From Methanobacteriota archaeon (GTDB lineage Bacteria > Myxococcota > UBA727 > JABDBI01), in the NCBI GenBank assembly GCA_013288705.1, contig JABDBI010000007.1, positions 6,519 through 70,518 of the forward strand: a DNA stretch of 64,000 bases, read 5' to 3'. Every line of letters starts with the position of its first letter. The stretch's first letter is position 1. Below are positions 34,701 through 43,700 of the stretch, piece by piece. Position numbers: made by a program.

Positions 34701-37700
34701 CCCTGCGGGAGAGGGTTCTGCAGCAGCCGCTTAAAATCAAGCTCGTGAAACAGCGCCTGCAGCTCCTGTTCCCTTGGCCCCGAATAGCGCAAATCCTCAA
34801 TCTCCACCCCAACCGGTGCGTTGCAATCAATCGTCACCAACTTCTTACTCAATCTCGCCAAATCCGAATCATTCAGCAATTTCTCCCGCCGCGACTTCTG
34901 CTTCATGAGCGGCGCCGCATTCAAAATCGACTCGAGCGACCCATATTCCTTCACCAACTCCGCCGCCGTCTTCTCCCCAATTCCGCGCACCCCGGGAACA
35001 TTATCCGACGTATCCCCCGCCAACGCCAACACATCCACCACGCGATCAGGAGGCACGCCAAATTTGGCAATCACTTGCTGCGAATCCACAAACAACTCAG
35101 TCCCATTCTTTTCCGCACGCAACTCATCGAGCAACCAAATGTCGCCATTCACCAATTGCATAAAATCTTTATCGCCCGTCACAATCACGACCTGCCGACC
35201 TGCAGCATGGGCTTTGCGTGCCAAGGTCCCAATCAAATCATCGGCTTCAAATCCAGGCTTGATCAGCGTCTGCATACCAAACGCTTCCGACATGCGATGA
35301 ATCAACGCAAACTGCGGCACCAAATCTTCCGGCGGTGGTGGGCGATTCGCTTTGTACGCGCTGTACATTTCATGCCGAAAAGTACGCTCTTTGGTATCGA
35401 ACGCGATGGCCACATACCGAGGCTGATGCGCGCGCAGCAGCTTGAGCAGCATGGTGGTGAAGCCATAAACTGCGTTGGTGGGAACACCTTTACTCGAGGT
35501 CAAAGGCCGGATGGCATAATACGCGCGGAAAATGTAGCCTGAGCCGTCGATCAGATAAACGGCATCATCTCGTAATTGCGGCAGATTGGTCATCATAAAA
35601 ACCTTGCTTGAACAGTTTCACGGCAGACGCTACTAAACCGTTAGGATTTTAGAAAGGGCACCCAGTGAATCATTACGAGGCGTTTGCACTGACTATCGCA
35701 TCAGCGCTGCCACTCCCAGAGCTTGCAGCATGCTCTGAACGAAAGCCAGACGTTCGCATTGGGTTTGCAATGATTGCAGACGAAGACAGACATAGTGGCC
35801 TCGCTCAAGTCTTTTTGTCCATTCCAGGGATTGCTCGGTTTCTTATCAGAAATGGCACTGAAGTCATCATTGAGGCGGACGACAAAGCAAGTGAAGCAGA
35901 TATTCGCCTTTTTGTGCTCGGCTCTGCGATGGGAGCCATTTTGCAACAACGTGGCCAATTGGTTTTACATGGCAATGCTGTCGAGATTGATCAACAATGT
36001 GTGACGTTTGTGGGTCCGTCTGGCAGTGGTAAAAGCACTTTGGCGTTTGCCTTTCAGAGCCAAGGATTTCGCATTCTGGCCGACGATGTCTGCGCTGTTT
36101 CATTGACAGACCCATTGCACCCAAGGGTGGTGCCAAGCTTCGCACAGATAAAGCTTTGGGAAGACTCCGCGCAGGCGCTCGGGGAAAGTACATTGACAAA
36201 GCAGCGCATCCACAATCGATTCAACAAATTTGCTTTCCCCTCGCTCTCGCATTTTGCACCGCTGCCTCTGCCATTGTCCCGGGTGTATGTGCTCAATCCC
36301 TGCGACAAACCAGGGTTCTCTGTTGAGACCCTGATGGGACATCACAAGTTTATCGCGCTTCATGGCAATACCTATCGTCCGCAATTTCTATGCACCAGCA
36401 GGCAAAAAGAAGAGCATTTGGCGCAATGTGCCCTCGTGGCAAAAAGTGTGACGGTGAAGAGAATCAGCAGGCCAAAAGAACCCTTTTTAATTAGGGAACT
36501 GACACAGTTCTTACTGCAGGATATCCAAATACAGCCTAGGAGCGTGATGCATGAAGCAGATTATCAGGTCCAGTGATTTGATCACCAGCGACATGGACGA
36601 TGAGTTGGTCATGCTGAGTATCAATAGTGGAAAATATCATGCCATAAATGCAGTGGGGAAACGCATTTGGCAACTCTTAGAAAGGCCTATGAATCTACCG
36701 CAATTATGCGAGGCGTTGTCATCGGAATTTGACGTCGATGCTAAGCGTTGCACGGAAGAAACAGCTGGTTTTGTGGCACAGCTCTTTACACATAACCTGG
36801 TGAAGTATCATGATGATGCGTCGATGGCTTCAACTTGAGGCTGTGATGAGCTTGGCAGTGGCGCAACTGGCACTTTATGTGGTGCCATTTCGGGTTATTG
36901 CAGGATATTTTGGGAAAACCTTGCCGGGAAATCCCCCTGCCCCCTTTTCCAAAGGGGGAAATGTGGATCCCATCGTTTTGGGGATTGGCACGGCGATCGG
37001 ATCAATGGCGAGGCGGCTGCCTTGGAAGCCGAAGTGTTTGGCGCAGGCCATTGCGGGGAAAATCATGTTGAAGCGCAGATATATTCCAAGTGCGCTTTAC
37101 TTGGGTGTTCGAAAAGAAGCAGATCGCAGTCTTGCTGCACATGCATGGCTTCGGAGTGGCGATATTATTCTCACGGGTAACTACCAACTCGATACGTATA
37201 CGGTCCTATCAGCGTTTATTGGATGACTCTATGAGTGCAATATGTGGCATCGTTGGCATACACGAGCCCCTCGCTCACGATGAAATCCGACATATGCTCA
37301 GCAACTTGGTGGCCTATGCCCCAGATCGTATCGGGTTCTTCGCTGGCGATAGCATCCAGCTTGGTCAAGTACAACGCTTCAACACACCTGAGTCTTTGTC
37401 TGAAGTGTTGCCACTCGAGGACGAAATTGCCGGCCCGGTGATTGTTGCGGACGTGCGACTAGACAATCGTGAGGAACTATTTGCTGCGTTAGGGATCCCA
37501 ACATCCGAGCACCGCACAATGCCAGACAGCAAACTGATTCTGCTCGCCTATCAAAAGTGGGGCAAGCTTTGCCCATCACATTTGCTCGGCGATTTTATCT
37601 TTGCGATTTGGGACAAACGCATGCGAAAGTTGTTCTGCGCGCGTGACCATTTCGGACAGCGGGTTCTGTATTACACCCAATGCAACGGCGGATTTTACTT

Positions 37701-40700: not shown

Positions 40701-43700
40701 AGTGCACTCGATCCGCATCATAGTAGCCACATCGAACAAACCATTGCCAAGCTACATGGAACAGTGACGCTGGTGATTATCTCCCATCGGCTCCAATCTG
40801 CTGCCTATGCAGATCAAATCGTGGTGATGGATCATGGGAATGTCGTGGAGTGCGGCCAATGGGATACCTTGCGCATGTTACACGGTGGCTATTTCTCTAA
40901 CATGCTGCGAGTGCGTGATGCAGTTGTAGCAAGTCCTCAGGTAGTGGTGCAGTGAAGACGACTGGTTGTCCGTTCGTAGGGTGTATAAAAGCCAGGCGCT
41001 CGGCGTGAAGCGCGTGGCGCTCCAGCAACATCGCGCTCGCCCGCACAGGTGTCGCTTTCAGATACTCAAGTGCGCGTGTGCCACCATAAAGCGTGTCATG
41101 CACAAGCGGGCGTCCAATGTCGGCGAGGTGCGCACGGATTTGGTGCGTACGCCCGGTCAATAGATTGACTTGTAGTTCGGTGATTCCGCCGGAGGATAGT
41201 AGGACGGTGAACTGCGAATGAGCCAGGCGAAGGTCGGAAATCTCCCTGAGTCCCCCTTTTTGAAAGTGGGAAATTTTGGTTGTGAAGCGTTTTCGATCTT
41301 TTGGATGGCGGTTGTGGCCGGTTTTGAGTTCGAAGGTTTCATCCTTGAAAATACCTACGCAAAACGCCCGATACGATTTCTCCACCTCGCGGGCCTTGAA
41401 GCTGCGCACCAGCGCTTGAAATGCCCGATCGTTTCGTGCGCAAACCATGACCCCCGATGTTTCTTTGTCGAGCCGATGCACCAAGCCCGGACGCTCGGTA
41501 TCACCCACATGCATATCGGGGAAATGGTGAAGCAGCGCGTTTACCAAAGTGCCTTCGCGATGCCCCGCTCCCGGATGCACCACCAACCCCGCGGGCTTAT
41601 TGATCACAACAATATCGCGATCTTCATAGAGCACATCGAGCGGCATATCCTCGGCCGTCAAATGTGACGCCTTCGGTTCGGGAATGTCGATGTCGATGCG
41701 TTCATCGCCATGATATTTATAGGAAGTCTTGACCTGCCGCCCATTCACCCGAATGTGTCCGCTCTCGATCAGCGCTTGCACCCGCGCACGCGATACCTCG
41801 GGATGCTTCTGCGCTATAAAAAGATCGAGACGCATTTCCGTCTTCATGACCAAATAGCTGAGGGGATTTCGTCGCCTTTGGCTTTAAAAATCAAATCCAC
41901 CAGGGCCCGCTCAAAAAAATTGGAGCGTTCATAGAGTGCAGGTGCGACGCGCGTCTGGTAAAGTTTTTTCCCTTGCGCGATGGGCTCGGCGATTTCCTCA
42001 AACAACGTATCTTCTTGAATGCCACGCACGATTTTCTCTTCATTGTAAAGCGCAATATCCGAAGCAATGGCACGTGCCAAACGGTTGGCCAGCTCTGGCG
42101 ATGTGATGGCTTGTATCATAGGCCAATAGAGTGTCAAAAGCCGGTTGCAAAATCAAGGTACTTCCTGATAACTTTACATCATGACCAAATATTGCCCAAT
42201 CTGCGAGTCCGAGTATCAAAACTCTATATCTGTTTGCCCTGACGATGGCGGCAAGCTATCCGCCCATCCTGTGCGCAAAAAGCTTGAAGCATCAGCCACT
42301 GACATTTATGCTGCTGCGGGCGAGATTGAAGCAGAGTGCATTGTCGCTTTCTTACAAGATATCGGGATTGTCGCAGATAAATACCAGACGAACTTGCCAC
42401 AGCTACCCTCCCCGGGAGATACACGCCACATCATTGCTGTACCGGTGCAATCGCAAGCAAAGGCGATTGACGCCATTAAGCATGCGCGCAAGGATGGCGT
42501 GATTTCTGACGAAGGCTCATTTCTTTAGCCATGGCAAAAACTCTAGGCAAAACAACCGATAAAGTTCTAGTCGGCAGCGTCGTTGGAACTGCAGTTCTCT
42601 ATGCAGTGCCCGGCTTGCATATGGTGGCATATCCACTGCTCTTGCTCTCGACCCTCGCCCATGAGATGGGACATGGGCTGACAGCGATTTTGGTCGGTGC
42701 GCATTTTAATTCGTTTCAAATGTGGTCGAATGGCTCTGGCGTTGCTGCGTGGTCGGGAAACGTATCTCGCTTGTCGCTTGCACTGGTTGCAGCCGGTGGG
42801 CTCGTCGGGCCTGCTGTGGCGAGTGCGTGCTTTTTTGCTTTGGCAAAAAAAGCAGAGCTTGCGCGCTTGGCGCTGACCATTCTTGGTGTGCTGTTAATTG
42901 TCGCCGAGTTTTTAGTCATACGAAATAGCTTTGGATGGATCTTTGTCGGTATATTGGCGGCGATTTTTCTATACGTCGCGCAACAAAATAGCCCGTGGCT
43001 TGCGCAAACGACGCTGGTATTTTTGGCGATGCAACTTGCATTGAGTGTGTTTTCACGCATGGATTACCTGTTTACCAAAAGCGCGCAGACTTCGCAGGGG
43101 ATGATGCCGTCCGACGTCGCGCAAATGGCGCATGCGCTGTTTTTGCCCTACTGGTTTTGGGGTGGTGTGTGTGCGGCTTTTAGCGTGGCGGTGCTCTTCT
43201 TGGGCATGCGGTTTTACCTGGGAAAATAGCCATTAGTGTATCCGCATGATCTCAACAATGTCTGACGTCGACACCCGACCGCAAGCGCCATTTTCTCCCA
43301 CTCTCAAGATTTCTGGCTGGTCCGTGCGCTCCGAGGAGCTGCACAGGACATCCTCTACACGATAAGCAGACATTGTGATTCCAGGATAAAACTCTTCGAA
43401 ACGCTCGTAAGTTCGTCTATCCACATACATTGTTCCATATCTCTTGAGAGCTTTTAGAAGTTTCCGCACAAATCGATGCTTTTCTCTGGCGTCCGTTATA
43501 CTATCGATCGCATAATAAAGTGAGTTTGTAGCAATGATCATGTCGGCGGATTGTTCCACAAGAGGCAGCATTTCAAATGACGACGTAATCGCCAACGTAT
43601 TACCTGGCAAACGGCTGGGAATGCTGGTCAACAATCTGCCAAGTGCCTGTACATAGGATTCCACCTCGTACGGAATACGATTGAAGTTTCTTTGGTGCCG

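What the first reader, a model, noticed from the sequence alone, without database searches (positions are those of the whole stretch)
35665..40955. Compact lasso-peptide cluster with an HPr-kinase-like gene but no detectable precursor gene
Five overlapping or abutting genes encode an HPrK-like kinase, a PqqD-type RRE (B1), a transglutaminase-like protease (B2), an Asn-synthetase-like cyclase (C) and a McjD-like ABC exporter (D). An HPrK-like kinase in such clusters phosphorylates the precursor C-terminal Ser in the paeninodin-type systems, so a phosphorylated lasso peptide is predicted. I could not find a 35-60 aa precursor ORF (leader with Thr at -2, core starting G/A/S/C with D/E at 7-9). 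The cluster is flanked by polA 68 bp upstream, and its 3' end overlaps rluD. The precursor is therefore either encoded elsewhere, very short or atypical, or lost.
Basis: partly seen in the sequence, partly recalled or inferred. Interest (0 to 1): 0.6.

Follow-up and report, generated by a model that had tools for sequence, protein, structure and literature searches.

The report
Lasso-peptide cluster with hidden precursor gene
This is an intact gene cluster for a knotted "lasso" peptide of the known phosphorylated type, and the precursor gene reported as missing is present as a 41-codon gene hidden in the overlap between the cyclase and exporter genes.

Summary
The five genes are real and look intact: an HPr-kinase-like kinase (K), a PqqD-type leader-binding protein (B1), a leader protease (B2), a cyclase (C) and an ABC exporter (D). 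The 68-bp gap to polA and the 59-bp overlap with rluD are also correct.

The claim that there is no precursor is wrong. A 41-codon ORF at 39041-39166 overlaps the last 68 nt of C and the first 65 nt of D. It follows a GAGGAG ribosome-binding site. It encodes MEEKQTNKARWEEPVLYPECNVNQETE|NAVSAGGDIGLLAS, with leader residues W-17, P-14, L-12 and T-2, an Asp at core position 8 and a C-terminal Ser. Homologous peptides sit at the C stop in four related loci. A profile built without the window sequence finds this ORF alone in the genome (E 7.6e-10).

In the GTDB family, the same 5 of 21 genomes carry A, B1, B2, C, K and a PsmN-like nucleotidyltransferase. In the relatives these genes are scattered over two or three loci.

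The cluster is a new member of the paeninodin/pseudomycoidin/Bsf type. The likely product is a 14-residue lasso peptide phosphorylated, and perhaps glycosylated, on its C-terminal Ser.

Two more lasso-like precursor genes lie on other contigs, each beside a cyclase that lacks the glutaminase domain.

The parts
35665..36576 (+). K: HPr-kinase-like precursor kinase (303 aa)
   Evidence: Pfam Hpr_kinase_C and NCBIfam HprK_rel_A match only over the P-loop region and fall below the cut-offs. H102, G117, G120, G122, K123, S124, D140 and D141 are each shared by 97-100% of the 71 aligned sequences from related clusters. Their spacing is identical to the BsfK motif H148-G163-G166-G168-K169-S170-D186-D187 (PMC10368454).
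36551..36838 (+). B1: PqqD-type leader-recognition protein (RRE, 95 aa); overlaps K by 26 nt
   Evidence: PF05402 at 57.3 bits; NF033536 lasso_PqqD_Bac at 83.8 bits, above the cut-off of 80.
36810..37226 (+). B2: transglutaminase-like leader peptidase (138 aa); overlaps B1 by 29 nt
   Evidence: PF13471 at 82.7 bits; NF033537 at 84.2 bits, cut-off 33. Cys76 and His111 are invariant in 46 aligned sequences. There are only 3 extra residues (P39-N41), in a variable loop.
37231..39108 (+). C: Asn-synthetase-like lasso cyclase (625 aa from ATG 37231). The last ~22 codons are a non-conserved tail that overlaps A.
   Evidence: PF00733, PF13537 and PF13522. NF033535 is the best model at 435.7 bits (cut-off 525). 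S262-G-G-L-D-S-S268 is invariant in 9 relatives. The closest relative is 44% identical.
39030..39035 (+). GAGGAG Shine-Dalgarno sequence, 5 nt before the ATG of A
   Evidence: Read directly from the sequence.
39041..39166 (+). A: precursor peptide gene (41 aa), MEEKQTNKARWEEPVLYPECNVNQETE|NAVSAGGDIGLLAS. It overlaps C by 68 nt and D by 65 nt.
   Evidence: tblastn with the precursor of the closest cluster hits this ORF. A leave-one-out HMM gives E 7.6e-10, the only significant hit among 47,148 ORF fragments of the genome. It sits at the C stop, as in G008, G011, G005 and L001. W, P, T(-2) and D8 are invariant across six members.
39102..40955 (+). D: ABC exporter (617 aa, fused membrane and ATPase domains)
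   Evidence: PF00664 plus PF00005. It is homologous (E<1e-40) to the D genes of Bacillota kinase-type clusters. Seven HSPs align from residues 2-5, which supports ATG 39102 as the start.

Best explanation
The window holds a complete six-gene operon, K-B1-B2-C-A-D, for a class II lasso peptide of the kinase-associated (paeninodin / pseudomycoidin / Bsf) type.

Shown by sequence:
- All six reading frames are open, and K, B2 and C keep the conserved residues checked.
- A is a 41-aa precursor with the leader motif W-17 xx P-14 x L-12 ... T-2 and a 14-residue core.

Inferred from characterised relatives:
1. B1 binds the leader.
2. K phosphorylates the linear precursor, most likely on the invariant C-terminal Ser14.
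3. B2 cuts after Glu(-1).
4. C joins the new N-terminus (Asn1) to the side chain of the invariant Asp8. This gives an 8-residue ring threaded by a 6-residue tail.
5. D exports the product.
6. The unlinked PsmN-like nucleotidyltransferase (genome contig C1:29138-30304) may add hexose to the phosphate.

A is translated from its own strong GAGGAG site, although its DNA is also read by C (3' tail) and D (5' end).
For: - Domains and curated models.
- Precursor by homology: tblastn, the six-member alignment and the leave-one-out HMM at E 7.6e-10.
- Precursor by position: A begins 4-77 nt before the C stop in all five loci that hold both genes.
- Residue checks: for K and B2, for C.
- Clade: the C relatives in named genomes are mostly C-A-K-B1-B2-N-D clusters of Bacillaceae, whose precursors also follow C and end in Ser.
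- Co-occurrence: A, B1, B2, C, K and PF14907 occur in exactly the same 5 of 21 family genomes.
- Enzymology of relatives: PadeK and PsmK phosphorylate the C-terminal Ser of the precursor, and PsmN adds hexose to the phospho-Ser (PMC6993621; PMC9266682). The leader Y-17, P-14 and L-12 residues are needed for B1-dependent processing (PMC10368454).
Against: - There are no expression or product data.
- C scores below the curated cut-off of NF033535 (435.7 against 525), and the kinase matches HprK models only around the P-loop.
- The cleavage site is inferred. Cutting one residue later would give A1-D7.
- The only characterised kinase from the same phylum, BsfK, phosphorylates Ser3 of the core and not the C-terminus. 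Every family core also has an internal Ser or Thr at positions 3-6.
- A 14-residue core with a 6-residue tail is short, so threading is unproven. Pseudomycoidin made without K and N was not threaded.
- The bsf cluster of Bradymonas gave no product in five heterologous hosts.
Confidence: 0.85

Rival explanations
1. The cluster is a relic. The enzymes are kept for another purpose or are decaying, and the 41-codon ORF is a chance frame in the C/D overlap.
For: A has no exclusive DNA except a few bases. Promoter-like and terminator-like sites in the region are no more frequent than in shuffled sequence. One family genome (G013) holds a B2 remnant with three stops, so loss does happen in this lineage.
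Against: All six frames are open and the conserved residues are intact. The peptide is conserved in sequence and position in five other loci whose cyclases are only 32-44% identical. The leave-one-out E-value is 7.6e-10. The six components co-occur perfectly in 5 of 21 genomes.
Confidence: 0.05
2. The cluster is active, but the kinase phosphorylates an internal Ser (Ser4 here) as BsfK does on Ser3. The C-terminal Ser is conserved for another reason, for example recognition by the exporter or the nucleotidyltransferase.
For: BsfK, from Bradymonas (Myxococcota), is regiospecific for Ser3 of the core (PMC10368454). All six family cores carry a Ser or Thr at positions 3-6.
Against: The internal Ser/Thr shifts position (3, 4, 5 or 6), whereas the C-terminal Ser/Thr sits at a fixed position in all six. 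PadeK and PsmK act on the C-terminal Ser. The window's C groups with the Bacillota-type clusters whose precursors end in Ser.
Confidence: 0.15
3. The leader is cut one residue later (after Asn), giving the 13-residue core AVSAGGDIGLLAS with a 7-residue Ala1-Asp7 ring.
For: With that cut, position 1 would be A, A, A, A, N, G across the six family members, which is closer to the usual G/A/S/C preference.
Against: It would put Thr at -3 and break the W-17/P-14/L-12/T-2 register that all six members share. From my own knowledge, the only characterised 7-residue rings close on Glu, not Asp. Predicted cores of the same kinase clade in Bacillota start with A, W, F, N, Q, L or G directly after T-x, so Asn1 is not exceptional there.
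Confidence: 0.12

Closest known systems
Pseudomycoidin (psm) cluster of Bacillus pseudomycoides DSM 12442 (psmC-A-K-B1-B2-N-D; PMC6993621)
   Same: The gene set is the same: C, A, K, split B1/B2, D, and a PF14907-type nucleotidyltransferase. A lies directly after C. The precursor ends in Ser. The K residues D140 and D141 correspond by motif position to the PsmK D158/D159 pair, whose double mutant is inactive.
   Different: - The gene order is K-B1-B2-C-A-D, and N is unlinked on another contig.
- A overlaps both neighbouring genes.
- The leader register is W-17/P-14/T-2 rather than W-15/P-12/T-2.
- The core is 14 aa, N1-D8, whereas the related Bacillota precursors have cores of about 22 residues or more, mostly A1-D9.
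- The host is an uncultured small-genome Myxococcota lineage, not a Bacillus.
Paeninodin (pade) cluster of Paenibacillus dendritiformis C454 (PadeK; Zhu et al. 2016, as reviewed in PMC9266682)
   Same: An HPrK-like kinase acts on the linear precursor at a conserved C-terminal Ser. It has split B1/B2 and an ABC exporter.
   Different: The pade cluster has no N gene. The pade core is longer and uses an Ala1-to-Asp ring. Phylum and gene order also differ.
bsf cluster of Bradymonas sediminis FA350 (Bradymonadales; PMC10368454)
   Same: It is from the same phylum-level lineage. It has seven genes (A, B1, B2, C, D, K, N), a YxxPxL leader motif at -17 to -12, a predicted residue-1-to-Asp8 ring, and an identical kinase motif.
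   Different: bsf precursors have Ile at -2 and Gly1, and BsfK phosphorylates Ser3. Here Thr is at -2, Asn at 1, and the conserved Ser is C-terminal. The same-order genomes searched hold no close C homologue (best E about 1e-31).

Membership tests
Lasso peptide biosynthetic gene cluster (class II, split B) | Precursor with a leader (YxxPxL-type motif, Thr at -2) and a core with Asp or Glu at position 7-9 | tested here: met
   A at 39041-39166 has W-17, P-14, L-12, T-2 and D8. These are invariant across six family members.
Lasso peptide biosynthetic gene cluster (class II, split B) | PqqD-type RRE (B1) and transglutaminase-like Cys protease (B2) with catalytic Cys and His | tested here: met
   NF033536 at 83.8 bits (cut-off 80) and NF033537 at 84.2 bits (cut-off 33). 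C76 and H111 are invariant. The third triad residue was not identified.
Lasso peptide biosynthetic gene cluster (class II, split B) | Asn-synthetase-like ATP-dependent cyclase (C) with the PP-loop | tested here: met
   PF00733 and PF13537. NF033535 is the best model but falls below its cut-off (435.7 against 525). SGGLDSS is invariant.
Lasso peptide biosynthetic gene cluster (class II, split B) | Product is a threaded macrolactam (lariat knot) | not testable with these tools
   This needs MS/MS, NMR or carboxypeptidase and thermal unthreading assays.
Kinase-associated (paeninodin / pseudomycoidin / Bsf) lasso subtype | HPrK-like kinase with the H...GxxGxGKS...DD motif | tested here: met
   H102, G117, G120, G122, K123, S124, D140 and D141 have the same spacing as in BsfK.
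Kinase-associated (paeninodin / pseudomycoidin / Bsf) lasso subtype | Conserved C-terminal Ser in the precursor as the phosphate acceptor | tested here: met
   The core ends in Ser14. The six family members end in S, T, S, S, S, S. Phosphorylation itself was not tested.
Kinase-associated (paeninodin / pseudomycoidin / Bsf) lasso subtype | PsmN-like nucleotidyltransferase (PF14907); optional, absent from pade | tested here: met
   One copy is present in the genome at C1:29219-29989 (181.3 bits), outside the window. It is found in the same 5 of 21 family genomes and lies directly after A in G008, G011 and G016.

The most novel reading that the evidence does not exclude
The window's single K/B1/B2/D set may act as a shared hub in trans for three precursors.

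Besides A, the genome encodes two more lasso-like peptides:
- C6:37077-37250(-), ...WSTPEVLELDFSTGTQ|GAGTDLFEDQTGAATQS.
- C11:4778-4915(+), ...WETPTLVELDIENTQ|SGTSGIIETQSGNFVS.

Each lies beside a secreted protein of about 160 aa and an Asn-synthetase-like enzyme (the C6 one has no glutaminase domain; the C11 one keeps only part of it), with no B1, B2 or kinase nearby. The module 'peptide, secreted protein, short cyclase' recurs in gammaproteobacterial and metagenomic contigs (L120, L204, L205; L123 has peptide and cyclase only). I found no description of it.

Together with the scattered genes in the relatives, this would mean that lasso pathways in these small genomes run as dispersed regulon-like sets rather than as clusters.
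Probability: 0.25. Interest if true: 0.6.

Novelty: new member of a known kind. Interest (0 to 1): 0.35.

Why it matters
- The finding turns an apparent orphan cluster into a complete, testable one, with an exact predicted product and masses.
- It shows a concrete way that precursor genes are missed. A 126-nt gene almost fully overprinted by the ends of two larger genes, with a non-canonical first core residue, fails the usual intergenic small-ORF and G/A/S/C filters.
- The same six components are kept together as a set in 5 of 21 genomes of a small-genome family, but at two or three separate loci in the relatives. Cluster-based mining would therefore undercount such pathways.
- The 14-residue core would be among the shortest lasso peptides (my own knowledge). 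It would be a good test of the published idea that a bulky phospho-hexose on the C-terminus acts as the lock.

Tried and rejected
1. Whole-genome regex scans for canonical precursors (YxxPxL...G...T-x-[GASC]...[DE]) missed A because its core starts with Asn. They did turn up the C6 peptide. I first took that for the missing precursor and then rejected it as the cognate one. It is not significant against the A-family HMM (E 2.8-4) and belongs to a second family (E 1.5e-5).
3. The metagenome scan with the short-cyclase alignment gave only one close relative (L123). The rest were ordinary lasso cyclases.
4. I tested whether the cluster is an insertion between conserved neighbours. polA is not within 1.5 kb of rluD in any of 7 relatives, so there is no empty site to compare.
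5. The promoter and terminator scan gave counts no higher than in shuffles. A TTGAAA-17-TAAACT site at 38896-38924 and a hairpin with a T-run at 38996-39020 just before A are noted, but they are not evidence.
7. A literature search for the assembly accession of a relative found nothing. The paeninodin paper PMC4919450 is not held.
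Full report
**Observation**

The window carries five tightly packed plus-strand ORFs:
- 35665-36576
- 36551-36838
- 36810-37226
- 37090/37231-39108
- 39102-40955

Pfam and NCBIfam assign them as follows:
- An HPr-kinase-like P-loop protein.
- A PqqD protein that passes the curated lasso B1 model (NF033536, 83.8 bits, cut-off 80).
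- A lasso B2 peptidase (NF033537, 84.2 bits, cut-off 33).
- An Asn-synthetase-like protein whose best model is the lasso cyclase NF033535 (435.7 bits, below the cut-off of 525).
- A fused ABC exporter.

polA starts at 35596 on the minus strand, 68 bp away. rluD (40897-41853, minus strand) overlaps the exporter by 59 bp.

**The precursor**

My first genome-wide motif scans used the canonical pattern and found nothing in the cluster.

The closest cyclase homologue is 44% identical and lies on a 4.4-kb metagenome contig (L001). Its stop codon is overlapped by a 47-aa ORF with a textbook lasso leader. A tblastn search with that peptide hit the window itself.

The hit is a 41-codon ORF at 39041-39166. 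It lies inside the 85-aa ORF that one search had listed as 38909-39166. It encodes MEEKQTNKARWEEPVLYPECNVNQETENAVSAGGDIGLLAS. A GAGGAG sequence sits 5 nt before its ATG.

The ORF overlaps the last 68 nt of C, whose final ~22 codons extend beyond the conserved cyclase C-terminus. It also overlaps the first 65 nt of D. Seven D homologues align from residues 2-5, which supports ATG 39102 as the D start and makes that overlap likely real.

Homologous peptides lie at the same place in three genomes of the same GTDB family, G008, G011 and G005. There A overlaps C by 77, 65 and 38 nt. In L001 the overlap is 4 nt. A fifth peptide occurs in G016, next to B1.

The six peptides share an invariant W, P, T and D plus a C-terminal S or T. 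The register is W-17, P-14, [LVI]-12, T-2, then a 14-residue core with Asp8.

An HMM built from the five other peptides finds the window ORF as the only significant hit among 47,148 ORF fragments of the genome (E 7.6e-10). The precursor is therefore present. It was missed because it is overprinted and its core begins with Asn.

**Integrity of the enzymes**

- K has H102, G117, G120, G122, K123, S124, D140 and D141, each shared by 97-100% of the 71 aligned sequences. The spacing matches the motif described for BsfK and the other lasso kinases (PMC10368454).
- B2 keeps the invariant Cys76 and His111. The GC-rich hairpin noted earlier in B2 adds only three residues in a variable loop.
- C keeps the SGGLDSS loop and 70-odd other invariant positions.
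- No frame is interrupted.

**Which kind of lasso cluster**

In named genomes, the relatives of C are mostly Bacillaceae clusters of the order C-A-K-B1-B2-N-D. Others are kinase-bearing clusters from Acidobacteria, Alphaproteobacteria and cyanobacteria. In the Bacillota clusters the precursor also follows C directly and ends in Ser. A typical sequence is MKKEWQKPELEVLNVNMTM|AGPG..PD...HYS.

Predicted first core residues in this clade include A, W, F, N, Q, L and G. Asn1 is therefore unusual for lasso peptides in general but not for this clade.

The characterised members are these:
- PadeK and PsmK phosphorylate the C-terminal Ser of the linear precursor.
- PsmN, a PF14907 nucleotidyltransferase-like protein, adds one or two hexoses to the phospho-Ser (PMC6993621; PMC9266682).
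- In the Bradymonas bsf cluster, BsfK instead phosphorylates Ser3, and B1 accelerates both phosphorylation and leader removal (PMC10368454).

**Distribution**

The genome is a 1.63-Mb, 74%-complete assembly. NCBI labels two members of its GTDB family as Myxococcota and Myxococcaceae MAGs.

Of 21 family genomes, the same five (G000, G005, G008, G011, G016) hold all six components:
- C at lasso-cyclase level (E 4e-70 or better; weaker Asn-synthase-level matches occur in other genomes)
- A
- K
- PF14907
- B2
- B1

G013 keeps a B2 remnant with three stops.

In the relatives the genes are scattered:
- G008 has B1-B2-C-A-N on one contig and K on another.
- G016 has B1-A-N, B2-C and K on three contigs.
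- G005 has B1-B2-N, C-A and K at three places.

Only the window genome has K-B1-B2-C-A-D together. Its N gene lies alone on contig C1 (29138-30304) among housekeeping genes.

**Mechanism**

Shown by sequence: six open genes, the conserved residues checked in K, B2 and C, and the precursor register.

Inferred from the cited relatives:
1. B1 binds the W/P/L leader.
2. K phosphorylates Ser14 of the linear peptide.
3. B2 cuts after Glu(-1).
4. C closes Asn1 onto Asp8.
5. D exports the product.
6. N may glycosylate the phosphate.

Predicted monoisotopic [M+H]+ values are 1226.6375, 1306.6038, 1468.6567 and 1630.7095.

Open points:
- The exact cut. The A1-D7 alternative would give 1112.59.
- The phosphorylation site, Ser14 or Ser4.
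- Whether a core with only six residues after the ring is threaded.

**Other lasso-like loci in the genome**

The peptide on contig C6 is followed by a secreted DUF3494 protein and a 456-aa Asn-synthetase-like protein without the glutaminase domain. It belongs to a second precursor family with a G....LFED..G..S core. That family accompanies such short cyclases in a gammaproteobacterial MAG and in metagenome contigs:
- In L120, L204 and L205 a homologous secreted protein of about 160 aa accompanies the peptide and short cyclase (the order differs in L120).
- L123 has the peptide and short cyclase, but no such secreted protein was found there.
- In L122 the neighbours are PqqD, two HPrK/ScmC-like genes and a sulfotransferase.

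An earlier agent reported the C6 trio independently. A third, weaker candidate lies on C11, next to another secreted protein and a convergent 510-aa Asn-synthetase-like gene. Whether these peptides use the window's B1, B2 and K is untested.

**Verdict**

This is an ordinary but complete member of a known lasso subtype. Four local peculiarities stand out: a precursor gene overprinted by both neighbours, a short N1-D8 core, an unlinked N gene, and dispersal of the pathway genes in sister genomes.

Noticed in passing
genome contig C6:34569-37250 (L004:6567-9251, minus strand): A second lasso-like operon. It has a 58-aa peptide (...WSTPEVLELDFSTGTQ|GAGTDLFEDQTGAATQS), a secreted protein with a ~160-aa N-terminal domain fused to DUF3494/Ice_binding, and a 456-aa Asn_synthase protein without the glutaminase domain. 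No B1, B2 or K is nearby. The module 'peptide, ~160-aa secreted protein, short cyclase' recurs in L120, L204 and L205; L123 has the peptide and short cyclase only.
   Followed up: partly
genome contig C11:4778-6936: A third lasso-like ORF (MDSTTQLKVEPAKDWETPTLVELDIENTQ|SGTSGIIETQSGNFVS; E 0.044 against the second-family HMM). It is followed by a secreted 187-aa protein weakly similar to the L120 secreted proteins. A 510-aa Asn_synthase-like gene converges on it and is 30% identical to the C6 short cyclase.
   Followed up: partly
genome contig C1:29138-30304: A PsmN-like nucleotidyltransferase (PF14907, 181 bits) stands alone between a peptidyl-prolyl isomerase-like gene and a pth-like gene (both named by eye, not searched). 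In G008, G011 and G016 its homologue lies directly after the precursor gene.
   Followed up: partly
L122 (ENA contig NODE_1305, 116 kb), 3184-8347: A short cyclase is flanked by PqqD, two HPrK/ScmC-like genes, a sulfotransferase and a 37-aa precursor (MSSMKEWEVPVVEILDLNETK|GGEVSKTFESTGGLAS). No B2 protease gene was called.
   Followed up: no
G013:C221:2990-3259: A lasso B2 remnant with 1 TGA and 2 TAA stops, in a family genome that lacks the rest of the pathway. This is evidence that the pathway was lost in some lineages.
   Followed up: no
window 38896-39020: A promoter-like site (TTGAAA-17-TAAACT, 38896-38924) and a 6-bp hairpin followed by TTTTTGTTGG (38996-39020) lie inside the 3' part of C, just before the ribosome-binding site of A. 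Counts in the region do not exceed shuffled controls.
   Followed up: no
window 36933-36962: A GC-rich hairpin (CCCCTGCCCCC...GGGGG) is read in frame inside B2. It falls in a variable loop and adds only 3 residues relative to 45 homologues.
   Followed up: yes
L002 / L014 (GCA_023248545.1, contig JAHFEF010000010.1): The relative G016 has B2-C next to a pepsin-like Asp protease, a eukaryote-type Ser/Thr kinase and a RING-finger protein. This is the same kind of eukaryote-like gene content that other notes report for the window genome.
   Followed up: no
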